Assembly: GCF_036669915.1 (NCBI RefSeq) | Contig: NC_089320.1 | Location: 15,979,874 to 16,043,873 of the forward strand | DNA from: Pocillopora verrucosa | Taxonomy: Eukaryota | Length of the DNA: 64,000 bases | Direction of reading: 5' to 3' | Shown: one piece after another, positions 8,600 through 61,787 of the stretch | How the letters are laid out: every line of letters starts with the position of its first letter | How positions within the stretch are numbered: the stretch's first letter is position 1 | Position numbers and translations under genes: made by a program | Notes under the pieces: model-generated | What the model saw: the letters and a program-made list of their open reading frames with translations, nothing else | Told to the model about the DNA's origin: nothing | Database searches by the model: none

Positions 8600-11500
8600 T
8601 TTAACAGCCGCGAGAATTTTTTTCTGAAAAAATAAAAGAAAGAAATCAGAAGAAAGTTCTCGGAGCTCTTGAAATTAAATTAATTTCTGCTTCTTAAAAG
8701 ATTAAAAGGAAAAAGAAAACTGACCAACGGGGCCTTAGGCCCCTTGGAGGTGCTTTAACAACTTAAATTAAACGACGGCGGGGATACGGCCGTCGCCTAA
8801 TTTGAGTTGTTAAATGTGCACTACCGCTAGACCACAGAGGCTTTTGGTAAGAAGACATGGCAAAATTACACTAGAAGTAGGTTTGCTCCCATTGTTAACA
8901 GAAATAATAGCTTGTGAATAGTATTTGATTCTAAGTGCTATCATCCTCCTGAGACTTGTAATTCTATTGTGTTTACATTACATTTTTGCGTTCTTTTTTG
9001 CAGCTTGCTTGAATTTTATTACTGAAGGAAGAAACCTCTGAAAGTCTCTGTGGGGTTAGTGGTGCAAGTCAAGAGTCGTTTTAAAACCTGTCAAAGTATA
9101 GCAGTAGTAGTGCGAGAAAAAAAGACGTTCAGAAATCTGTGAAGATCTTGTAGTAGTAGTAGTGATGCAAGTGAGAAGTAATTTTATAAAGAAGTGTAGT
9201 AGAAAAGTACAAGTAAAACATTTTAGAATCTATTCGTGAGTGAAAAATCTTTCAAAGTATCTTGTTGTGAAAGTAGTGCAAGTAAAGAGTCGTTCAAAAA
9301 TCTGTCAAAGTCTAGCAGTAATGGTACTAATAGACAATCGGTGAAAAAGTCATTCAAAATCTAGTGCAAAATTAAAAAGTCGTTCTAAAGATCTGTCAAA
9401 TATAGAAGTAGTCGTCAAAAAAACTGTCGAAGACTAGCGGTAGCATTATTCGTAGTGCAAACAAGAAAGTAGTTAAAAATATGTCGTAGTCCAGCACTAG
9501 CAGTGCGAATATAACGTTTTTTAGAAGGTCTCTTAAATGTACAGGTAGCAGTGCAGGTAAAACGTCGTTCAAAGATCTGTCTTAGTCCGGCAAAAAATTA
9601 CTAATAGAAAAAAGTTGAGAAAGTCTTTCAAAATTCAGCAGTAGTGCAAATAATATCTCGTTCTAAAATTTTGTTAAGGTCTAGTAGATGTTGCACAATT
9701 TGAGAGTTGTCGTGCAAATGAAATACTCGTTCAAAATCTGATAAAGTGTAGTAGTAGTGGAAGTACAAATAAAACAAAAATCTTTTAGAGAGGGGTAGTG
9801 TAAATAAGACTCGATCAAAATCTATCAGTGTAGTAGTAGTAGTGTAAATAAGACTCGATCAAAATCTATCAGTGTAGTAGTAGTAGTGTAAATAAGACTC
9901 GATCAAAATCTATCAGTGTAGTAGTAGTAGTGTAAATAAGACTCGATCAAAATCTATCAGTGTAGTAGTAGTGTAAATAAGACTCGATCAAAATCTGTCA
10001 GTGTAGTAGTAGTAGGGCAAATAAGAGTCGTTCAAAATCTGTCAGTGTAGTAGTAGTAGTAGTGTAAATAAGAGTCGTTCAAAATCTATCAGTGTAGTAG
10101 TAGTACTGAAAATAAGAGTCGTTCAAAATCTATCAGTGTAGTAGTAGTACTGAAAATAAGAGTCGTTCAAAATCTATCAGTGTAGTAGTAGTAGTACGAA
10201 TAAGAGTCGTTCAAAATCTATCAGTGTAGTAGTAGTAGTGCAAATAAGAGTCGTTCAAAATCTGTCAGTGTAGTAGTAGTAGTGCAAATAAGAGCCGTTC
10301 AAAATCTATCAGTGTAGTAGTAGTAGTGCAAATAAGAGTCGTTCAAAATCTGTCAGTGTAGTAGTAGTAGTGCAAATAAGAGTCGTTCAAAATCTGTCAG
10401 TGTAGTAGTAGTAGTGCAAATAAGAGTCGTTCAAAATCTATCAGTGTAGTAGTAGTAGTGCAAATAAGAGTCGTTCAAAATCTATCAGTGTAGTAGTAGT
10501 AGTGCAAATAAGAGTCGTTCAAAATCTATCAGTGTAGTAGTAGTAGTAGTGCAAATAAGAGTCGTTCAAAATCTGTCAGTGTAGTAGTAGTAGTGCAAAT
10601 AAGAGTCGTTCAAAATCTATCAGTGTAGTAGTAGTAGTGCAAATAAGAGTCGTTCAAAATCTGTCAGTGTAGTAGTAGTAGTGCAAATAAGAGTCGTTCA
10701 AAATCTGTCAGTGTAGTAGTAGTAGTGCAAATAAGAGTCGTTCAAAATCTATCAGTGTAGTAGTAGTAGTGCAAATAAGAGTCGCTCAAAATCTATCAGT
10801 GTAGTAGTAGTAGTGCAAATAAGAGTCGCTCAAAATCTGTCAGTGTAGTAGTAGTAGTGCAAATAAGAGTCGTTCAAAATCTATCAGTGTAGTAGTAGTA
10901 GTGCAAATAAGAGTCGCTCAAAATCTATCAGTGTAGTAGTACAAGTGCGAAAAAGAGTCGTTGAAAATCTGTCAGTGTGTTGTAGTAGCAGTAATAGTGC
11001 AAATAAGAGTCGTTGAAAATCTGTCAGTGTGTTGTAGTTGTAGCAATAGTGCAAATAAGAGTTGTTGAAAATCTGTCAGTGTGTTGTAGTTGTAGCAATT
11101 GTGCAAATAAGAGTCGTTGAAAATCTGTCAGTGTGTTGTAGTTGTAGCAATAGTGCTAATAAGAGTCGTTGAAAATCTGTCAGTGTGTTGTAGTAGTAGC
11201 AATAGTGCAAATAAGAGTCGTTGAAAATCTGTCAGTGTGTTGTAGTTGTAGCAGTAGTGCAAATAAGAGTCGTTGAAAATCTGTCAGTGTGTTGTAGTAG
11301 TAGCAATAGTGCAAATAAGAGTCGTTGAAAATCTGTCAGTGTGTTGTAGTTGTAGCAATAGTGCTAATAAGAGTCGTTGAAAATCTGCAAGTGTGTTGTA
11401 GTTGTAGCAATAGTGCAAATAAGAGTCGTTGAAAATCTGTCAGTGTGTTGTAGTTGTAGCAATAGTGCTAATAAGAGTCGTTCAAAATCTGTCAGTGTGT

Positions 11501-13440
11501 TGTAGTAGTAGCAATAGTGCAAATAAAATCTGTCAGTGTTGTAGTTGTAGCAATAGTGCAAATAAGAGTCGTTGAAAATCTGTCAGTGTGTTGTAGTTGT
11601 AGCAATAGTGCAAATAAGAGTCGTTCAAAATCTGTCAGTGTGTTGTAGTAGTAGCAATAGTGCAAATAAGAGTCGTTGAAAATCTGTCAGTGTGTTGTAG
11701 TAGTAGCAATAGTGCAAATAAGAGTCGTTGAAAATCTGTCAGTGTGTTGTAGTTGTAGCAGTAGTGCTAATAAGAGTCGTTCAAAATCTGTCAGTGTTGT
11801 TGTAGTAGTAGCAATAGTGCAAATAAAAGAGTCGTTGAAAATCTGTCAGTGTTGCAGTAGTTGTAGCAGCAATAGTGCAAATAAAAGAGTCGTTGAAAAT
11901 CTCTGAGTGTTGCAGTAGTAATAGTGCAAATAAGAGTCGTTGAAAATCTTAGAGTGTTGTAGTAGTAACAGAGCGAATAAAAGAGTCCTTGAAAATCTGT
12001 CAGATTGTAAGACTCTTTTATTTGCAATACTACTACCACACTCTGAAAAAAAGAGTGTGATAATGGTACTCCAAATAAAAGAGTCATTCAAAATCTGTCA
12101 GGGTGTTGTAGTAGTAGTGAAAATAAAAGAGTCGTTCCAAATCCGTCAGAGTGTAGTAGTGGAAGTGCAAATAAGAGAGTCGTTCAAAATCTGTCAGTGT
12201 GTAGTAGTAGTGCCAACAAAATAGTCGTTCGAAATCTGTCAGAGCGTAGATGTAGCAGTGCAATTGAAATGTCTTTCGAAGTCTAATAGTAGTAGTAGTG
12301 CAAGTAAAAAACTCGTTCTAAAAGTATGTCAAAGTTTCGCAGTAGTAATTTAGGTGAAAGTCATTAAAAATATTTGTCGACTGTAGAAGTAGTAGTGCAG
12401 TTGAATAGTCGGTTTAAAATTTTTCAAATTCTAGCGGTGGTAGTGCAAATTAAAGTCTTTGATAAAAATCTGTCAGTCTAGCAGTAGTAATGTAAATAAG
12501 AAAAAAGTCATTAAAAAAACCGTTAGACTAGTAGAAGAATTGCAAGTCAAAAGTCTGTCACACTGTAGAAGTAAAAAATGGAAGAGAAAAATTGTTATAT
12601 AATCTTTCAAAGGTAGAGTGTAGCTGCAGTGTTAGTAAGAGAAAGAAAAATAAACACCAAAAACGTCACAGTTTCGACTAAAGATTTATTCACATATTTT
12701 CATTTATATTTGTCAATGTCTTGAACTTCTTCCTTGTCAGAGTTCTAACCCTAAAGAGATCGAAAACAAATATTTTATTTTTGAAAGTTCACTACGATAA
12801 TTGCATGCAGAGTTTAAACCACAAATCTCACGTACGTAAAATAAATGTTTTATGTTAATTCTAGTTTCCACGCTTTTCTCGACCCTTGTGTAACCCTTTG
12901 CATTAAATTCGTAAGGAAATTGTTTAGTTTGAGTTTTGAGTGGCAGGAATTATTTTGGGCTGAAAAGTTTACCATAAAGTTAGAGAGCATTTATTTAGAG
13001 GAGAGTGGGTCGATCATAAAACGGTTGTTCAACATATGTTTTGTACATAGGTAAGGATGCAAACAGTGCATGTTTAACATTCCCAAGAGGGTGATACATG
13101 TACTGAGTGAACCTATTGTTTCTATCAACAATGGGAGCGAACCTACTTCTAGTGAAATTTTGCCATGTACTCTTACCAAAAGCCTCTGTGGTCTAGCGGT
13201 AGTGCACATTTAATAATTCAAATTAAACGGCGGCTGGATCCCCCCAGCCGTCGTTTAATTTAAGTTGTTAAAGCACCTCGGAGGGGCTCAGGCCCCATTG
13301 GTAAGTTTTCTTTTTCTTTTTAATCTTTAAAGAAGCAGAGTTGATTTTAAGATCTCAAAAGATATCTGCTGGAATCTTTTTTCTTGGAAAAAAAATTTCC
13401 AGACAAAAATTCTCGGAGATCTTAAAACTAAAAATATTCT
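8600..13440. mobile_element. Composite foldback-like element: ~350-bp inverted arms (8600-8935 and 13070-13440, about 90% identical as reverse complements) around a 3.6-kb minisatellite
   Basis: Direct comparison. The rc of 13120-13300 matches 8700-8935 (..accaa[c/t]ggggcc..gaggtgctttaacaacttaaattaaacgacggc..aatgtgcactaccgctagaccacagaggcttttggtaaga..ctcccattgtt..). Similarity decays outward toward 8600 and 13440. Confidence 0.85.
8990..12600. repeat. Minisatellite array. The 42-bp unit GTGTAGTAGTAGTAGTGCAAATAAGAGTCGTTCAAAATCT[A/G]TCAGT is homogenised over about 9790-10925 (~27 copies). A ~60-bp variant GTGTGTTGTAGTTGTAGCAATAGTGCAAATAAGAGTCGTTGAAAATCTGTCAGT runs over about 10925-11960. Degenerate units lie at 8990-9790 and 12000-12600.
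   Basis: Visible periodicity. All units share the same orientation. Confidence 0.95.
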
Positions 13441-18724: not shown

Positions 18725-18838
18725 GGGCGCCATTTTGGACCGGCGGACTGGCTGTGTGGCACAAATAGCCTCGATCTCATATGCAAATGTTCTCTTGGCC
18801 GCTTTGAGCTGAAGACACCGATTGCAAATATGGCGGCG
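18725..18838. promoter_or_regulatory. Inverted pair of ATGGCG-core motifs (GGGCGCCATTTTGG at 18725-18738; CAAATATGGCGGCG at 18825-18838). Candidate bidirectional promoter without an assignable gene.
   Basis: Motif architecture resembles the SRRM1/SURF6 pair. A similar pair lies at 19488-19496 and 19748-19761. Confidence 0.3.
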
Positions 18839-21800
18839 AAAATGCAAGTACTTAAAGTGAAGTGAGCATATTTTTGTTCGTTCGGTGATTTGAAAATCCT
18901 TCGAAACATCTCTCCGAATTTCGATAAGCCAGGTCTATAAACATAATGTATTGTATGTATTTAGATACAAACTGTATAAAATCAGAATTTCTTTACTAAA
19001 ACCACAATAGTTTTAGAAAGTAGCAAAAGTTAACTTCAGTTTTGATGGATCCTCTTTTGAAAGACATTAGTAAGTGACCTTTCTAACATCTGCATCTACA
19101 TAATATCCTGTCTTACAACACATCGGTACACATCAATTATCGGGCATACTTCACTGGGATTTCGACAAAAGAGAAATTGGTAAAGCGCTGCTCAATATAA
19201 AAACGCTAAAAGGAAAACAGCATAAGCCACAGTTTACTAGAAGTTTAAAGGTTTATAAGACAATGCGATATTCATTACAATTGACGCATTTCCTTTGCAT
19301 AGGCCTACACATGGGACAGGAAAGCTAACATTTATAACATAACTATGTCTTGAATCGTCGCTATACCCGTATTTCTTTTACGCTTAAGTATATTTACAAG
19401 CATATCCTTGGAAAATACAGAAAAAATAAAGATCCTGCTGGCGATTGTAAGCGATTCTTGTCTCGGAACTCCTAATATAAATTTCACGATGGCGCCCGTT
19501 TACGAACATTTGCATAACAAAAGGCTTCGCAAACAAAATGGGATGAGTCTACTGACCTTGAAATGCCTCCCAAGTATTTTAAAAAAGATTGATGAGCAAT
19601 TCTTTCCGTACCTGTATGTGTGCTGTGGGAATATCTTCGAAAAACACGCTTCAAAAAATTGTAAACAACTCGAACTCGCACAGAGAAACGATTAACAGCT
19701 TTTGCCTTAGCAACAGTTGCTACCGAAAACCTCGCTTTCGTGCACACGCCGCCATATTTGGAATCGGTGCTACACTTGTACGTGAAATTGCCGCTCGAGG
19801 TGTCGTTTGAGGTGGAAAGATTGCAGCCAGCTATTCCATATTTTCGTTTTTCGATTTGTTCAATTTTGTCCTACTAGTTGTTTTGGCCACTGCCATTGTA
19901 TCAAGTACATTACTAAGATGTTTAACTATTAAACCTTATTGTTGTTTTCAACTTTGCAACTGGTTTATGACACTGACCGAAAGCACCCTACAATCCACTT
20001 TCCTTGAATATTTCTGCGCAATTAGTACAATAGAAAAATTCTTTTACTAAAGATCGAACGCACTTTACAAATCTTTGATTATTGCTAGTTTCTCACGATA
20101 AAGTATCTTTAAGCCGGCCGACTGTACCAACATCTAACACTAAAATGAATTGAAAAGCACGAAACGAAGTTAACAAAAAATCAATTTTTGAGCATACTCT
20201 TTCAGTTAGTTTAAGCCTCAAGAGCTCAGAATTAAAAAAAATTGGTTCGGAGATTGAATCGCATCACAAAGACGCAGTTGATGTCAAACTCTATTAGCAA
20301 TTTGAGAGACAATGACCAACTTCTGAACATACTGTTCACTTTGGTTGAAACCTAGCTAAGACCTCAAGCATTTTTAATGATTAGGTTCGTATATTATGCA
20401 TCAGTTGATGATAAACCTTAGCAGCAATTTGAGAAACAAGCACTGGTAAACTCATGGAACATACTTTTCCAATTTGCTTTAAGTTCTGCGAGCTCAAACG
20501 TTTCAAATAATTAGTCGCTAAGAAATTTATTGAAATCGCTTCATGTGTCAGTTGATGTTAAATTTAACAAGCAATTTGCGACACAAAAATCAATTTGGAG
20601 AATACCACCACAAAATACCACCAGAAAGTGTTAGTACTCAGGCTCGAAGATTTTTATTAAATCATGTCAAAAAAAGACTCTGTATAATTGGACGGAAAAC
20701 GCAAGAATAACTTGTCAATAAAATCTACTTTTGGAGTATACACTTTTAGTTTGGTTTAAACTTAACTTCATAACACTTAGGCTCCAAGGGTTTTCCGTTT
20801 GAATTGAAAAAAGGTTAATTCTTGTAAGAAAATGTAAGACTATTAACCTTGTCAGAGATGTAAAAAAGAATTCAGGAAAAAAAGATAATTGTAAGAGCAT
20901 ATTGATATTTTTTTTCAGTAATTTTAAAGCTCCAAGAGCTATATTGAAGGAGGTAAAAGAGTGAGAACTTACCAGACTATAACCTATCGAAGATCTAAAA
21001 CAAAATTCTATAACTTAGTCGGAGAAAAACAAAATATGACATCGTGTTTTGCCTTAAGAGCCGAGACATTCAGGCTTTAGGTTGACCGAAATTTGTCATC
21101 AAATGAACGCCCTACTTAGCATTTTATGTTGAGATATTTCGTTGACAGTGGTGAGACAAATAAAAAGTATTCATGGTAGGTTAAAATCGTTAAACGCAGA
21201 CAAACAGGCCTAGATAAATTATATTTTGCAAAAAAAGGAAGTAATCTGACCTTGTTAGGAGTTGTCATGTATTTCCTTCCTTCCTTGAAGTTGTTGATTT
21301 CGTAGTGCTCTAATTTTCTTCTTGATAATGTCCAATGGAGAAAAAAAAAGAGACAAATATATTATGAAGACTTACGCACCTGAGTGCTATTCGTTCTAAA
21401 TGATAAATGTCAACGTCTGAATTAAAAAACTCATTTATAGCCACCAAATTTTTTTGTTGACAAATTTCATGTCCTTTACTCTTACTGAACAAAGGCATTA
21501 GGGAATTTACAGGTTTCCTGACAATGCAGATTAAGGTAAGGACTACCCTCCGCGGCCTCTGTATGAAAGATGGGAACCAATTCTCTGATAAACAGATACA
21601 GAGTCTATGTTATTAGGCTTTCTCGATTACCGTCTCTCTCTGTTGGAATTGAAGGTAAAGGAAAGAACAAGTGCGTTTGAAACGCATTTCAGGTCAAAAC
21701 GCTATAATCATAAAAGCTAGTTGAAAAAATATGCACAGAAATGAAAAGAGAAATGAATAAACAAGCGGTAAGTACACAAACAATATACAAGTAGTAACAA

Positions 21801-39690: not shown

Positions 39691-39750
39691 CGCTTTCGTC
39701 TCGTAAAGTACAATTCGCTGGGTGCAGCAAATTGAGTAGAGGTCCGCCAT
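39691..39750 (-). CDS. FIG4: FIG4 (Sac3 polyphosphoinositide phosphatase) exon 1: MADLYSICCTQRIVLYETKA; ATG at 39748-39750; donor GCG|gtaaat
   Basis: Translation matches the FIG4 N-terminus (..LVLYETRA..). The start codon is embedded in AAGATGGCGGAC. Canonical donor. Confidence 0.8.
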
Positions 39751-39844
39751 CTTGATATCTTGATGAATGTTATTATTAGATCCCAGGTCTCTCACGGGCT
39801 CCGCTCCGCAACAGAGAATCGATGCGTCCTCTTTGATTCTTTCA

Positions 39845-39846
<2 letters not shown>

Positions 39847-39914
<68 letters not shown>
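39847..39914. repeat. (TA)34 microsatellite, about 95 bp upstream of the FIG4 start codon
   Basis: Direct observation. Confidence 0.98.
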
Positions 39915-39916
<2 letters not shown>

Positions 39917-40264
39917 TATCTGTACTTTCAAAAATCCTCAAGGGTACTTTAGGTGGAAGATGAAAAAGATAGTCTAATGGGGGAGGGGGGTTTAATCCGA
40001 GTCTTCAGTCCGCCTGCTCTCATCTGGTTTTTAAATGTGAACAACGAGTGTACAGGTGGAAACATAGCTCAGGAAGTTGAAATTGCACTCCTTGATATTC
40101 TTGGCAGGGATGTGCTGTCCACGTTCTCCAAATCTTGTCTCAATTTTTTTTAACCAAATCATGCCTCTTTCTAAATCCATTTTCAATTTGAAAATTCTTT
40201 ACTCTTTTGCAGACCAAAACAGCTAAAAAGCCTTCCCATTTGGGTTGAAATGTTCCTATTTATA

Positions 40265-42611: not shown

Positions 42612-42943
<332 letters not shown>

Positions 42944-43624
42944 ATGGCGGGCAGTCTAACACGAGAGGTGATAACTCTCCAATTTGGTCATTACTCCAAC
43001 TTTGTCGGTACTCACTGGTGGAATATTCAAGAATCTAGCTTCTGCTATGACCCTAGTTCTTCATTTCAACAAGAAATTAACCACGATGTGTTGTTTAGGG
43101 AAGGTTTAACTTTACAGGGCGACCAAACTTACACTCCAAGGTTGTTGGTGTTCGATTTGAAAGGAAGTCTAAAAAATCTACCAAAATATGGAACTTTGTA
43201 TCAGACTCCATCTGACGGCCACGAAACCTTGTGGGAAGGGGCAGTTTCTGTACATGAATCAGAACCAGAACCTAAAAATGAATTTCAAATGGACTTAGAA
43301 GCGGTACTGGAGTCTGAGAACGATCGCGAAACAGAAGTTTCTGTTGACAATAGAACGCTTGATCAGGATCCTGTCGATAAAAACCCAAGAGAAAAGTATT
43401 ATGACCTGGATAAAAATGTCTCTGTGTGGTCAGACTTCTTAGGAACCTGCTTGCATCCGAAATCAATTCAGCTTGTGCGGGATTACCTGCATGGTGGAAG
43501 CACTAGTCCATTTGATGTGTTTGGATACGGACAGTCTGTAGCCAAAGATGAACACTTTTATGATGAGTTTGAAAGCAATCTTCATTTCTTTGTCGAGGAA
43601 TGTGACAGTCTACAGGGATTCCAG
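42944..43624 (+). CDS. MSTO1: MSTO1 (misato, tubulin/FtsZ-like) exon 1: MAGSLTREVITLQFGHYSNFVGTHWWNIQE...ECDSLQGFQ
   Basis: The ORF begins like human [28 protein letters not shown] and ends ..HFYVEECDYLQGFQ. Donor CAG|gttaga. Confidence 0.9.
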
Positions 43625-44217
43625 GTTAGAATTATACCGCTTGGAAAAATGAATTTGTGGTGAGGTCCATAGAGTGTCTGGAAGCTATCAGACCAAAGTT
43701 TTGATCATTTCGCCATTTTGTTCACTTAGTGATTTTGTAAGTTGAGAGAGGTAGTTGTCTGTTTTCAAGTGATTCTTAACGCCTTATGGATTGTAATCCA
43801 GGTCTGTTTAACCTTAATCTGGGTCCTTGCTTCTCAGTGAGGAACAGAATTGATAATAGGAAAACAATCTACTGCCCATTTTCCCTCCCCCTAATATTTT
43901 CTTGCTTTTTTCAATTCCTTCCTTCTACCTCTCCCAACCCCTGCCCCCCTTGACCAGTGATCCGGCCTAATTGCACTTAGGAGCCTGGTGCTTGTCTAGC
44001 TTTTTGTGTGCTTAACTTTCATCTGTTATTAGTTCAGAAAACCTGTGCTACATATGCAATCAATTAGATATAAACTAATCATAGCTCAGCCATTCACACT
44101 TTCCTGTGCCTGAGGCCATCGATGTGTCTGTAGTTTAAGTTTTCTTTGGCTTCATGTGATATTTTCCTATGTTCTGATTGAGCATAGTGAAAACTATAGT
44201 GTTAGTTTTGCACTGCT

Positions 44218-57560: not shown

Positions 57561-58693
57561 CTATCAAGAGAAGAAGACAACAGCCATAATTATCAAAAAT
57601 GCAAATAAACATTTATTCATAACAACTTTATTTAAATAATAACATATAACATATTATTATTAAAAAAGGGTTATAGAAGGGAGGAACTTAATCCTCATTG
57701 TAAACTATATCCCAGATATAAAAATTTAATACTATGCAATATACATATACATACTGAAACATTTTACACACAAGCATATATCTATATCAATATAAGATCT
57801 AAATAAAGAAGACATATCTAAGATAAAAATTTTGTTTAAAATGATAATTAAATAATGTATAATACATAGAATAATTTAATTTTGTAATTACAGGCCTAGT
57901 TAAATAATGTTGATTTTAGTGCTTTCTTAAAAGCATTCATTGAGTCAAATTCAACTACTGATGATGGTAAACTGTTCCATGTGTCAATATATCTGTGCCA
58001 AAAATACTTAGAGATATCTGTAGAGCAAAATGGTTTATATAGTTTAAACTGATGACTTTTTCTTGATTGCCTGTTACTTAAGGATATCTAATCATTAGTG
58101 TTTACAGAAGAGTATTCTTTAATGAACTTAAAAAGCTGAAACAAACTAAGAAACTCTCTGTGCTGAACTAGTGTCGCTAGTTTCAAGGATTTCAGTTGGT
58201 CTTTATATGGAGAGAGAGAGAGCTCTAATTCACAGGAAAAGAACACTGAATCAAAGAGCTCAAAACAGTAATCAGGTTTTTATCAGGCTTGAATATGATT
58301 TATGGATTAAGGAGGTAAGTTTCTAAAGAGACTGTGATACTACATTGGTGGAGGGTGTTACAAGATAATTTGGGTTTTATCAACTGAGTTGATAATGTAA
58401 ATTGGCAATCTGCTGTTAAGAGTTTGTAAAGTTGACATTTTGAGCATTAGCCCTTTGTCAGGGCACTCTAACAAAGGGGTAATGCTCTGAAGCAAAGCAA
58501 ATATATTTGCCAACTACTAGGGACACACAATTGAATATTGCTCTCAGTGAAGATAGTCATGAGAGCAAAGTTAAAACAAAAATAACCCAGCCCAAGAGTA
58601 AAAATATCAATCTACAATTTGGATTCCAAATGCCCCAAGAATCATTCTTTATTGAGTATCCTAACAATTCCTCTTCCAACAGAGAATTCAAAC

Positions 58694-58864
58694 CTTTCTT
58701 TGCTTGATTTCCTCTTTCTTTTTTTCCATAAATTCAGAAGGAATACCACCAATATTTTCTTGTGCACTTAAAAGAAGAGTCCATAACTCCTTCATAAATT
58801 CACGGGCATTTTTGGATTGCAAAAAGCCAGTAATATTTATTTGCATGAACTTTGGATCTGGACT
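58694..58864 (-). CDS. SRRM1: SRRM1 exon 4 (PWI domain part 2): SPDPKFMQINITGFLQSKNAREFMKELWTLLLSAQENIGGIPSEFMEKKKEEIKQRK
   Basis: Near-identical to human KMMQINLTGFLNGKNAREFMGELWPLLLSAQENIAGIPSAFLELKKEEIKQRQ. tttcag| acceptor, AAG|gtttga donor. Confidence 0.95.
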
Positions 58865-59361
58865 CTGAAAAAACAAATACATAAAAAATAAATAGGTAAT
58901 ACTTTAAAATCCCAATGTTTTTCTCACAGCTGAAATCACAGTTTTGTAAATAAAGAAAGGCAGTTGTAATATATAATTGGAAAGGGAAGAAACAGTAACT
59001 GATTAGTGAGTAAAACAATAGCTTAATACCAGTATGAAAAAACCCTATCATTGTACCAAATACATGTTCAAAAATGCTGTATAATCCTGCACAGTTTACA
59101 TTTTTCCTGCAAGATTTCAATTTAATTTTCCCATACCCTGTCAAAAGACTGTAAAATGCAGTCACCTCTGGAAGGTTTCAACTACAATAATTCGACAAGG
59201 GAGACTTGGTATCCTGGTTAAGAGGTTGCTTCCTGGGTTCTCTACTTGTATTCTATGTTGTTCTTTACCTATTTCTATTAGAATGTCACTCTGTAAGGCC
59301 CCCTGAGTGAAACTCAAAGCTCAAAAGAAAGTGACTGTAAAATGAGTAATCATTATTTCAC

Positions 59362-60652: not shown

Positions 60653-60676
60653 CCGAAAGAAACCAGCGTCCGCCAT
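60653..60676 (-). CDS. SRRM1: SRRM1 (SRm160) exon 1: MADAGFFR; ATG at 60674-60676
   Basis: Human SRRM1 starts MDAGFFRGTSAEQDNRF. Donor CGG|gtgagc. The start codon is embedded in AAGATGGCGGACG. Confidence 0.85.
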
Positions 60677-60800
60677 CTTGAAAGCCGCCTGGTCTGGTCT
60701 GATCACATGGCTTTGTTCGTTCGGCAAATCAATGGCCTATCGGAAAGTGTCATCGATGCGAGGCTCTAATACACATGTGGGAAGTAAGATGGCGGACGTT
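60664..60800. promoter_or_regulatory. Ultra-compact bidirectional SRRM1/SURF6 promoter, with 112 bp between the ATGs. An exact 13-bp inverted repeat AAGATGGCGGACG sits at 60667-60679 (minus) and 60786-60798 (plus), each supplying the start codon.
   Basis: Direct observation. The motif matches the YY1-type core AAnATGGCG. Confidence 0.7.
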
Positions 60801-61787
60801 GAGAGACTTGAGTTGGAAGAGCGGTTAGCGAGCCATTCCGCTTATTTCAATTCCCTGATCGAGTTGATACCAGTGAAATATTACCTACCTATTGATGAAG
60901 AAGAGAAAGCAAACAAGTTTTATAAAAATCGTTCGAGGAAAGCACCTAAACAGACTATTAAAGAGGCATCAAGGAAAGCCAAACGTGCAAGACTCGATCC
61001 GAACCAGCATAAAACAATTCAAGAAATACAAAAAGAGGCTGAGGGAAATGCTTCCACCGGAAATCAAATTGATCTAAACGATGAAGAAAAAATAGAGAGT
61101 CCTAACTTTAGTGTCGAAAGGGTGGAAAGCAAAAGTCTGGAGGACCTAAGATCTCGCCTGCATGCGAGAATAGAAGGCTTGCAAAGAAAACGTAACGCAG
61201 GAAGTGGGAGGCCAGATGGCTTACAACAACCACGTGCGAAGAAATCGAAGAAAGAAGTAAAAGAAAAAAATAAGCAGAAATTGGCTGCTACCTTTAAGGA
61301 ATCGAAAGGAAGTAGACAAAACGATTCTTTACCCAGCCAGAAAATATTAAACGAAAGTGGAGATGTTGTTTTTAGTAAATTTGATTTCTTGGAAGCTAAG
61401 AAAGAACCAAGACCTGGGATGAAAAAGAAAAATTACGAAAAACTGCTCGCTAAAGCTGAAGCTCGAAAGAAAAAGCTGGAATCTTTGAGAAAAGAGGATT
61501 TGTCGAAAGCTAAAGAATTAATGGATAAACTTTCTTGGAGTCAGGCGATTGAAAAAGCTGAGGGTATAAAACAACACGATGACCCTAAACTTTTAAAGAA
61601 GGCGATGAAAAAAAGAGATAAGGCGAAAACAAAAAGTAAAAAGCAGTGGGAAGAACGGATTGGTTATCAAAAGAAAATGGCAGAGGAGAAACAAAAACAA
61701 AGACGAAAAAACATTAAAGAAAGGATTGAAGCCAAGAAAGGAAAAAAATCTGGCAAAGGAAAGAAAAAGCACAGACCAGGATTCTAG
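60789..61787 (+). CDS. SURF6: SURF6/RRP14-family nucleolar protein, single exon, 332 aa: MADVERLELEERLASHSAYFNSLIE...HDDPKLLKKAMKKRDKAKTKSKKQWEERIGYQKKMAEEKQKQRRKNIKERIEAKKGKKSGKGKKKHRPGF*
   Basis: The basic coiled-coil C-terminus has the SURF6-domain pattern DDPxLLKKxxKxxxKxKxKSxKxWxER...QKKRxxNIKxR. This is recalled from memory, not searched. The ATG at 60789 is preferred over the ORF-track start at 60645, whose N-terminus is antisense to SRRM1 exon 1. Confidence 0.6.
   Translation: MADVERLELEERLASHSAYFNSLIELIPVKYYLPIDEEEKANKFYKNRSRKAPKQTIKEASRKAKRARLDPNQHKTIQEIQKEAEGNASTGNQIDLNDEEKIESPNFSVERVESKSLEDLRSRLHARIEGLQRKRNAGSGRPDGLQQPRAKKSKKEVKEKNKQKLAATFKESKGSRQNDSLPSQKILNESGDVVFSKFDFLEAKKEPRPGMKKKNYEKLLAKAEARKKKLESLRKEDLSKAKELMDKLSWSQAIEKAEGIKQHDDPKLLKKAMKKRDKAKTKSKKQWEERIGYQKKMAEEKQKQRRKNIKERIEAKKGKKSGKGKKKHRPGF

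What the first reader, a model, noticed from the sequence alone, without database searches (positions are those of the whole stretch)
60664..60800. The same 12-mer AAGATGGCGGAC supplies the start codon of three genes, as an exact inverted pair at the SRRM1/SURF6 promoter
SRRM1 reads caAGATGGCGGACGctgg at 60667-60679 on the minus strand. SURF6 reads tAAGATGGCGGACGttg at 60786-60798. FIG4 reads cAAGATGGCGGACCtct at 39742-39753 on the minus strand. All three begin M-A-D. MSTO1 has the variant AATATGGCGGGC at 42941-42952. AAnATGGCG is the YY1-type core, and in mammals YY1 motifs are known to sit just downstream of TSSs overlapping initiation codons. Here the motif is a perfect 13-bp inverted repeat 106 bp apart driving two divergent genes. 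This suggests a shared initiator and translation-context element. It also suggests very short 5'UTRs, or overlapping antisense 5'UTRs.
Basis: partly seen in the sequence, partly recalled or inferred. Interest (0 to 1): 0.6.

Follow-up and report, generated by a model that had tools for sequence, protein, structure and literature searches.

The report
YY1/TISU start-codon motif in coral
Four housekeeping genes in this stony-coral window start translation inside the same short DNA motif, which matches a mammalian element (TISU, a YY1 site) that serves as both promoter element and start-codon context; it is a well-conserved but ordinary example of a known kind.

Summary
AAGATGGCGGAC occurs exactly three times (0 expected by chance). 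Each copy supplies the ATG of a gene: SRRM1, SURF6 and FIG4. MSTO1 has the variant AATATGGCGGGC. The SRRM1 and SURF6 copies form a perfect 13-bp inverted pair 106 bp apart.

The window comes from a pocilloporid coral. The motif matches mammalian TISU (SAASATGGCGGC) at 10-11 of 12 positions. It is exact over ATGGCGG, the part needed for YY1 binding.

The constraint is on the nucleotides, not only on the protein. All four genes use GCG for Ala2, although GCG makes up only 16% of Ala codons. GCG-GAC never changes in nine SRRM1 sequences out to Nematostella, while neighbouring codons change synonymously.

YY1-family motifs are already reported in 40-51% of active Pocillopora promoters and in Nematostella constitutive promoters. 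I therefore file this as a new member of a known kind.

The inverted repeat is simply two outward-facing elements flanking a compact, conserved bidirectional promoter. TSS position, 5'UTR length and YY1 binding could not be tested.

Two corrections:
- TRIAP1 lies head-to-head with MSTO1 and lacks the motif.
- The two further AATATGGCGGCG hits, near 18.8 and 19.8 kb, are terminal inverted repeats of a decayed THAP/Harbinger-type transposon.

The parts
60667..60679 (-). TISU-like YY1 motif cAAGATGGCGGACg supplying the SRRM1 start codon (ATG = 60676-60674)
   Evidence: The sequence is invariant from -8 to +12 in 8 coral sequences and reads AAGATGGCGGACGC in Nematostella.
60786..60798 (+). TISU-like YY1 motif tAAGATGGCGGACg supplying the SURF6 start codon (ATG = 60789-60791)
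   Evidence: It reads AAGATGGCGGAC in 7 coral sequences, AACATGGCGGAT in L007 and AACATGGCGGAC in Nematostella.
39742..39753 (-). TISU-like motif cAAGATGGCGGACc supplying the FIG4 start codon (ATG = 39750-39748)
   Evidence: The orthologous start in L021 reads AAGATGGCGGAT.
42941..42952 (+). Variant motif cAATATGGCGGGC supplying the MSTO1 start codon (ATG = 42944)
   Evidence: L020 has the same AATATGGCGGGC and Actinostola has AATATGGCGAC, while L021 has lost it (ATGACT).
60680..60785 (.). 106-bp bidirectional SRRM1/SURF6 promoter between the two ATG motifs. It holds conserved blocks: TGGTCTGRTCACATGGC, a CCAAT box (ACCAATCGG in other corals, CCTAT in this window), ATCATCGGTGCGAGGCT and GCACATGTGG.
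   Evidence: Alignment A1 of 8 coral sequences. The head-to-head PWI/SURF6 arrangement is present in all loci fetched, out to Nematostella.
60653..60676 (-). SRRM1 coding exon 1 (MADAGFFR), followed by the splice donor GTGAGC at 60652-60647
   Evidence: The next exon encodes GTSAEQDNRF..., and a PWI domain exon lies at 58691-58903.
60789..61787 (+). SURF6 single-exon coding sequence (332 aa plus stop)
   Evidence: Pfam RRP14 and SURF6 in all homologues.
39691..39750 (-). FIG4 coding exon 1 (MADLYSICCTQRIVLYETKA)
42944..43660 (+). MSTO1 first coding exon (open frame; the exact exon end was not determined)
42633..42776 (-). TRIAP1/UPF0203 exon 1, head-to-head with MSTO1 and 168 bp from its ATG. 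The start context is ggaATGAAC, so this is the one identified gene in the window without the motif.
   Evidence: UPF0203, E = 1.7e-20.
18816..19769 (-). Decayed deletion copy of a THAP plus DDE_Tnp_4 (PIF/Harbinger, ISL2EU-like) DNA transposon. Its 23-bp terminal inverted repeats (18816-18838 and 19747-19769) contain AATATGGCGGCG. These account for two of the six AANATGGCGG hits and are not host gene starts.

Best explanation
These are TISU-type YY1 elements of a stony coral. At the DNA level, ATGGCGG and its flanks form a binding site for the coral YY1 orthologue. The site sits just downstream of the transcription start of constitutive (housekeeping) promoters, in sense orientation. The embedded ATG is the start codon, so the mRNAs should have very short leaders. 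On such mRNAs the AAG-AUG-GCGG context would provide accurate cap-proximal initiation, as shown for mammalian TISU. The inverted pair arises because two head-to-head housekeeping genes, SRRM1 and SURF6, each carry their own outward-facing copy. The copies lie on either side of a compact 106-bp bidirectional promoter that also holds a CCAAT box and E-box-like blocks.

Shown here: the motif match, its excess over chance, its use as the start codon, nucleotide-level conservation, and conserved synteny.

Inferred: YY1 binding, TSS position, short 5'UTRs and the translational role.
For: - Three exact 12-mers occur against 0 expected, and six AANATGGCGG against 0.1-0.2 expected.
- All four gene sites keep ATGGCGG exactly. 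These are TISU positions 5-11, which are required for YY1 binding and transcription in PMC2518114. The sites match SAASATGGCGGC at 10-11 of 12 positions.
- The ATG is the start codon in 4 of the 5 genes identified. In human, the ATG is the start codon in 64% of TISU genes.
- Ala2 is GCG in 4 of 4 genes, although GCG is 35/217 = 16% of Ala codons. Asp3 is GAC in 3 of 3 genes, against a 37% background.
- In SRRM1 exon 1, codons 4, 5, 6 and 8 change synonymously across nine sequences, but GCG GAC never does. In SURF6, MAD is the only conserved part of a variable N-terminus.
- Positions -3 to -1 are conserved: AAG, or AAC in the two most distant SURF6 orthologues.
- The gene functions fit the TISU classes: RNA processing, ribosome biogenesis and mitochondria.
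- Published data agree. A YY1-family motif is found in 40-51% of highly active Pocillopora damicornis promoters together with NFY/CCAAT and bHLH motifs. YY1 is enriched in Nematostella constitutive promoters. A YY1/Kozak motif lies about 10 bp after the TSS in a sponge.
- The YY1 zinc fingers are 97% identical between human and the octocoral Paramuricea.
Against: - No TSS, 5'UTR or binding data exist for this locus, so the defining positional feature of TISU (+5 to +30 from the TSS) is untested.
- Position 12 is A or G rather than the consensus C.
- Part of the pattern is expected anyway, from the common Met-Ala N-terminus and the preference for G at +4.
- The element is dispensable in some lineages. 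MSTO1 lost it in L021, and SURF6 has AAC rather than AAG in L007 and Nematostella.
- TRIAP1, also a housekeeping gene, lacks the motif.
Confidence: 0.72

Rival explanations
1. Coding and Kozak coincidence. The 12-mer only reflects three proteins that begin Met-Ala-Asp, plus a generic good initiation context (A at -3, G at +4). There is no transcription-factor site and no special translation mechanism.
For: All three exact copies encode M-A-D, and Met-Ala is a common N-terminus. The strongly conserved bases overlap coding sequence.
Against: GCG is a minority Ala codon (16%) yet is used 4 of 4 times, and it is invariant in all orthologues while adjacent codons vary synonymously. The non-coding -3 to -1 positions are also conserved. 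The same core occurs in a non-start context in a transposon terminal repeat. YY1-family motifs are independently reported as the top promoter motif in this coral genus.
Confidence: 0.1
2. The element acts only at the RNA level as a translation-initiation context, or only at the DNA level as a YY1 site whose ATG overlap is incidental. On this view it is not a dual-function element.
For: Nothing here separates DNA-level from RNA-level selection. In human, 36% of TISU motifs are not start codons. The transposon copy sits upstream of the real THAP start.
Against: In mammals the same positions (5-11) serve both functions. Four of five genes in this window use the ATG, more than an incidental overlap would predict.
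Confidence: 0.13
3. The inverted repeat is itself the functional unit. It would act either as a cruciform or hairpin, or as a paired site for a dimeric factor controlling both genes. Alternatively the two genes have overlapping antisense 5'UTRs.
For: There is a perfect 13-bp (15/16 over 16 nt) inverted pair with spacing conserved at 106-113 nt between arms (ATG-to-ATG 110-118) in all eight coral sequences. The single strand can pair the arms.
Against: - FIG4 and MSTO1 carry single copies.
- In Nematostella the two copies are 344 bp apart.
- The fold z-score is only -1.97, with a 106-nt loop.
- Similarity stops at the motif.
- Leaders that overlapped would contain uATGs at 60708, 60732, 60756 and 60775 and would sequester each AUG in a stem.
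Confidence: 0.05

Closest known systems
[quoted passage not shown]
   Same: The core AAGATGGCGG is the same, with an invariant ATG used as the start codon. The element is in sense orientation only. Positions 5-11 are intact. The genes fall in housekeeping classes (RNA processing, ribosome biogenesis, mitochondria).
   Different: The organism is a cnidarian rather than a mammal or fish. Position 12 is A or G rather than C. TSS distance, 5'UTR length, YY1 binding and scanning-independent translation are all untested here. A search of the held paper library for 'TISU' together with 'cnidaria' found no paper that uses the TISU concept for cnidarians.
YY1-family motif of cnidarian constitutive promoters (Pocillopora damicornis ChIP-seq preprint 10.64898/2026.09.10.745915; Nematostella, 10.1101/2025.07.01.662323; YY1/Kozak motif in Amphimedon, PMC4773876)
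   Same: The genus or family is probably the same. The motif lies within +/-200 bp of the TSS of highly active core-function genes and co-occurs with NFY/CCAAT and bHLH-type motifs. All of these are seen in the SRRM1/SURF6 promoter.
   Different: In the passages I retrieved (searches for YY1, Kozak, TISU and 'constitutive'), those studies describe genome-wide enrichment and do not mention use of the motif's ATG as the start codon. I did not read the papers in full. This window adds locus-level detail and conservation between species.
Mammalian bidirectional promoters with YY1 and NF-Y sites (from my own knowledge, e.g. Surf-1/Surf-2; not checked here)
   Same: Compact head-to-head housekeeping gene pairs with YY1 and CCAAT elements.
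   Different: Here both start codons lie inside the YY1 motifs, and only 106 bp separate them.
YY1 site inside the ProtoRAG transposon TIR (PMC7481187)
   Same: The transposon at 18816-19769 carries a YY1-type core (CGCCGCCATATTT) inside its terminal inverted repeat. ProtoRAG's TR5 element GCCATCTTG is likewise bound by YY1.
   Different: The superfamily differs (THAP plus DDE_Tnp_4 Harbinger/ISL2EU-like rather than RAG-like), and there is no functional evidence here.

Membership tests
TISU element | Sequence SAASATGGCGGC with an invariant ATG, and positions 5-11 intact | tested here: met
   SRRM1 and FIG4 match CAAGATGGCGGA at 11/12. SURF6 (TAAGATGGCGGA) and MSTO1 (CAATATGGCGGG) match at 10/12. 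ATGGCGG is exact in all four (consensus).
TISU element | The motif's ATG is the translation start codon | tested here: met
   The conserved N-termini of SRRM1, SURF6, FIG4 and MSTO1 begin at this ATG in all orthologues. The in-frame upstream ATG at 60732 is specific to this lineage.
TISU element | Located +5 to +30 downstream of the TSS, in sense orientation only | not testable with these tools
   No CAGE or RNA data are available. Orientation is sense at all four genes. The 106 bp between the two ATGs limits the sum of both leaders plus the core promoter, unless the transcripts overlap.
TISU element | Very short 5'UTR (median 12 nt), with cap-dependent, scanning-independent initiation | not testable with these tools
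   Inference only. All contigs retrieved were genomic, not transcript-derived.
TISU element | Bound and activated by YY1 | not testable with these tools
   Support is indirect. The YY1 zinc fingers are 97% identical in an anthozoan, and a YY1-family motif is enriched in Pocillopora promoters.
TISU element | Enriched in housekeeping genes (RNA metabolism, protein biogenesis, mitochondria) | tested here: inconclusive
   The four genes fit the classes, but four genes are not a statistical test. TRIAP1, a mitochondrial gene, lacks the motif.
PIF/Harbinger (ISL2EU-like) DNA transposon (for 18816-19769) | DDE_Tnp_4 transposase with HTH_Tnp_4 (plus a THAP domain in ISL2EU), terminal inverted repeats and a short TA-containing target duplication | tested here: met
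   The family copy L025 has DDE_Tnp_4 at 3.9e-41, HTH_Tnp_4 at 5.7e-14 and THAP fragments. The TIRs are 23 bp. All 11 metagenome copies are flanked by TA. The window copy aligns to L025 at 70-74% in four segments, plus the second 23-bp terminal repeat at 100%. However, it has no intact ORF and no recognisable target duplication.

The most novel reading that the evidence does not exclude
TISU, as a combined promoter and start-codon element, may predate the cnidarian-bilaterian split and may have been retained at the same orthologous start codons for hundreds of millions of years. SRRM1 keeps AAGATGGCGGACGC from corals to Nematostella. A THAP/Harbinger transposon family would then have copied the same host element into its terminal repeats to obtain housekeeping-type expression or YY1-assisted transposition.
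Probability: 0.4. Interest if true: 0.5.

Novelty: new member of a known kind. Interest (0 to 1): 0.3.

Why it matters
The locus is a clean, conserved example showing that the mammalian TISU architecture also exists in corals: a YY1 site whose ATG is the start codon of a housekeeping gene. That would push this coupling of transcription and translation back to early animals. It also has a practical use in annotation. Coral genes of this class probably have leaders of only about 10-25 nt. Gene callers can mis-extend their N-termini, as happened with the 351-aa SURF6 call. It does not change current understanding, because YY1-motif enrichment in coral and Nematostella constitutive promoters is already reported.

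Tried and rejected
- An exact-protein look-up of the window's SURF6 found nothing. I reached orthologous loci through homologues instead.
- I hoped that Logan contigs would be transcripts giving 5' ends. All of them contained SRRM1 intron sequence, so they are genomic.
- I first treated the AATATGGCGGCG pair near 18.8 and 19.8 kb as a second pair of promoters. I rejected this when a metagenome scan showed a multi-copy element with TA flanks and a THAP/DDE_Tnp_4 transposase.
- Rfam and tRNA scans of the window, and an E-value scan of 17-22 kb, found nothing. A snoRNA-host-gene explanation for that cluster was dropped.
- Pfam scans of ORFs in 3-26 kb and 63 kb gave no further genes. The gene map for 1-26 kb remains open.
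- ATCGAT looked like a co-motif, since 4 of the 9 copies in the window lie within 75 bp upstream of motif sites (132 bp for 18693). It reads ATCGGT in the orthologous promoters, so I did not pursue it.
- The supplementary file of the TISU paper does not list SRRM1, SURF6, FIG4 or MSTO1. Conservation of the element in the human orthologues is therefore unverified.

Full report
**Observation**

The 12-mer AAGATGGCGGAC occurs exactly three times in the window: 39742-39753(-), 60668-60679(-) and 60786-60797(+). None of 100 dinucleotide-preserving shuffles produced a single copy. The relaxed core AANATGGCGG occurs six times against 0.23 expected, or 0.09 under a first-order Markov model. ATGGCGG occurs 8 times against 1.4 expected.

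The two copies near 60.7 kb form a perfect 13-bp inverted pair, AAGATGGCGGACG. The repeat finder extends the pair to 16 nt at 15/16, with 106 nt between the arms.

**Organism and genes**

The SURF6 open reading frame (60789-61787) has its best matches (98%) in Tara Pacific coral metagenomes. The 87% cluster contains Stylophora pistillata XP_022796092.1. Sea anemones, including Nematostella, match at about 50%. I infer that the window comes from a pocilloporid stony coral, probably Pocillopora.

Gene identities were verified as follows.
- SURF6: all homologues carry Pfam RRP14 and SURF6.
- SRRM1: exon 1 encodes MADAGFFR, is followed by a GTGAGC donor, and a downstream exon matches PWI at 5e-14.
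- FIG4: exons 1-2 match PDB 7k1w_F Fig4 at 6e-17, and a later exon matches Syja_N.
- MSTO1: homologues carry Misat_Tub_SegII.

In each gene the motif's ATG opens the conserved N-terminus.

It lies head-to-head with MSTO1 and starts at ggaATGAAC, without the motif. So four of the five identified genes start inside AAnATGGCGG.

**Conservation**

I fetched orthologous loci for seven further anthozoan lineages through SURF6 homologues. SRRM1 (PWI) and SURF6 are head-to-head in every one.
- The SRRM1 start reads AAGATGGCGGACGC in all of them, including Nematostella.
- The SURF6 start reads AAGATGGCGGAC in seven coral sequences, AACATGGCGGAT in L007 and AACATGGCGGAC in Nematostella.
- The distance between the two ATGs is 110-118 bp in corals and 344 bp in Nematostella.
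- FIG4 in a distant coral (L021) starts AAGATGGCGGAT.
- MSTO1 keeps AATATGGCGGGC in L020 and AATATGGCGAC in Actinostola, but has lost the motif in L021.

An alignment of the intergenic region (A1) shows further conserved blocks between the two motifs:
- TGGTCTGRTCACATGGC
- a CCAAT box, ACCAATCGG (mutated to CCTAT in this window and its closest relative)
- ATCATCGGTGCGAGGCT
- GCACATGTGG

This is therefore a compact, conserved bidirectional promoter with one outward-facing motif at each edge.

**Is the constraint on the DNA/RNA or on the protein?**

In pooled coding sequence from the window and its orthologues, GCG makes up 35/217 = 16% of Ala codons and GAC makes up 37% of Asp codons. Yet Ala2 is GCG in all four genes (about 7e-4 if the genes are independent), and Asp3 is GAC in all three.

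Within SRRM1 exon 1, codons 4, 5, 6 and 8 show synonymous changes among nine sequences, whereas GCG GAC never changes. In SURF6, residues 4-10 differ even at the protein level, while ATG GCG GAY is fixed. The three non-coding bases before the ATG are also conserved. The selection therefore acts on the nucleotide sequence.

**What it is**

[quoted passage not shown] It is exact over ATGGCGG, positions 5-11, which are the positions required for YY1 binding and promoter activity in human cells (PMC2518114).

In human, TISU has these properties:
- It lies at +5 to +30 from the TSS, in sense orientation only.
- Its ATG is the start codon in 64% of the genes that carry it.
- Those mRNAs have a median 12-nt leader.
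- The genes are enriched for RNA processing, protein biogenesis and mitochondrial functions.

SRRM1, SURF6 and MSTO1 fit those classes.

Published data also support the YY1 link:
- A 2026 preprint reports a YY1-family motif in 40-51% of highly active Pocillopora damicornis promoters, alongside NFY/CCAAT and bHLH motifs.
- YY1 motifs mark constitutive promoters in Nematostella.
- A YY1/Kozak motif sits about 10 bp after the TSS in a sponge.

The YY1 zinc-finger domain is 97% identical between human and the octocoral Paramuricea, so conserved binding specificity is plausible.

**Mechanism**

I judge the following model most likely (confidence about 0.7). Each gene has its own YY1/TISU element just downstream of its TSS, and the element's ATG is the start codon. 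The mRNAs then have leaders of roughly 10-25 nt, and the AAG-AUG-GCGG context secures initiation close to the cap.

Shown here: motif identity, excess over chance, start-codon use, nucleotide-level conservation and synteny.

Inferred: YY1 binding, TSS positions, leader length and the translational role.

On the SRRM1 side, a conserved TCAGACC matches the YYANWYY initiator pattern (recalled from my own knowledge). It would put the TSS 24 nt before the ATG. This is only a reading of the sequence.

**Rival explanations**

- Pure coding/Kozak coincidence is contradicted by the codon-usage and synonymous-site results.
- The inverted repeat acting as a unit, or overlapping antisense leaders, is unlikely for several reasons:
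  - FIG4 and MSTO1 have single copies.
  - The spacing is 344 bp in Nematostella.
  - The single-strand fold is unremarkable (z = -1.97).
  - Overlapping leaders would contain upstream ATGs at 60708, 60732, 60756 and 60775 and would bury each AUG in a 16-bp stem.
- I cannot separate a DNA-only role from an RNA-only role.

**The other two hits are a transposon**

The AATATGGCGGCG copies at 18827 and 19749 lie in a 23-bp inverted repeat, CACCGATTSCAAATATGGCGGCG. A metagenome scan found 11 further copies. In each one the flank is unrelated and ends in TA, while the internal sequence is shared.

The longest copy (L025) encodes THAP fragments, HTH_Tnp_4 (5.7e-14) and DDE_Tnp_4 (3.9e-41). It is therefore a PIF/Harbinger, ISL2EU-like DNA transposon.

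The window copy (18816-19769) is a 954-bp decayed deletion derivative. It aligns to L025 at 70-74% and keeps a THAP remnant.

A YY1-type site inside a transposon terminal repeat has a precedent in ProtoRAG (PMC7481187).

**Verdict**

The YY1/start-codon interpretation is supported as far as sequence comparison can go. The idea of the inverted pair as a unit is not supported. This is a new member of a known kind (TISU/YY1 promoter elements) in a lineage where YY1-motif enrichment is already published. It is well conserved but not surprising.

Noticed in passing
window 18816-19769 (TIRs 18816-18838 and 19747-19769); L023-L033: This is a decayed 954-bp copy of a multi-copy THAP plus HTH_Tnp_4 plus DDE_Tnp_4 (Harbinger/ISL2EU-like) DNA transposon. 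Its 23-bp terminal repeats contain a YY1/TISU-like AATATGGCGGCG. In intact copies the TIR's ATG opens a short ORF (MAAYARKRGF...) upstream of the THAP start.
   Followed up: yes
window 18725-18737 (-): A canonical YY1 consensus, CCAAAATGGCGCC (CGCCATTTT on the other strand), lies about 80 bp outside the transposon's left TIR. No gene could be assigned to it.
   Followed up: partly
window 42633-42776 (-): TRIAP1/UPF0203 exon 1 lies head-to-head with MSTO1, 168 bp between the ATGs. The pairing is conserved in L020, L021 and Actinostola. Its start (ggaATGAAC) lacks the motif, so the MSTO1 motif may be the only YY1 site of that bidirectional promoter.
   Followed up: yes
window 60727-60740; L001 9996-10010: The CCAAT box that other corals keep in the SRRM1/SURF6 promoter (ACCAATCGG) reads GGCCTATCGG in this species. 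The change creates an in-frame upstream ATG at 60732, which led a gene caller to extend SURF6 by 19 residues (P0001, 351 aa).
   Followed up: partly
window 18693, 39818, 42928, 60752: Four of the nine ATCGAT palindromes in the window lie upstream of YY1-type motif sites. Three are within about 75 bp of a motif-bearing gene start; 18693 sits beside the canonical YY1 site at 18725-18737 and 132 bp from the transposon repeat at 18827. In the orthologous SRRM1/SURF6 promoters the site reads ATCGGT, so its relevance is doubtful.
   Followed up: partly
window 9795-12242: A large minisatellite with a 44-nt unit (about 43 copies, with 88- and 132-nt higher-order periods) and a strong GC skew (+0.40).
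   Followed up: no
window 39847-39919: A (TA)36 microsatellite lies about 100 bp upstream of the FIG4 start motif.
   Followed up: no
window 60696-60712 and 60770-60779: Conserved E-box-like CACATG/CATGTG blocks flank the promoter. GATCACATGGC lies toward SRRM1 and the palindromic CACATGTG lies 9 nt before the SURF6 motif. The second is conserved out to Nematostella (GCACATGT).
   Followed up: partly
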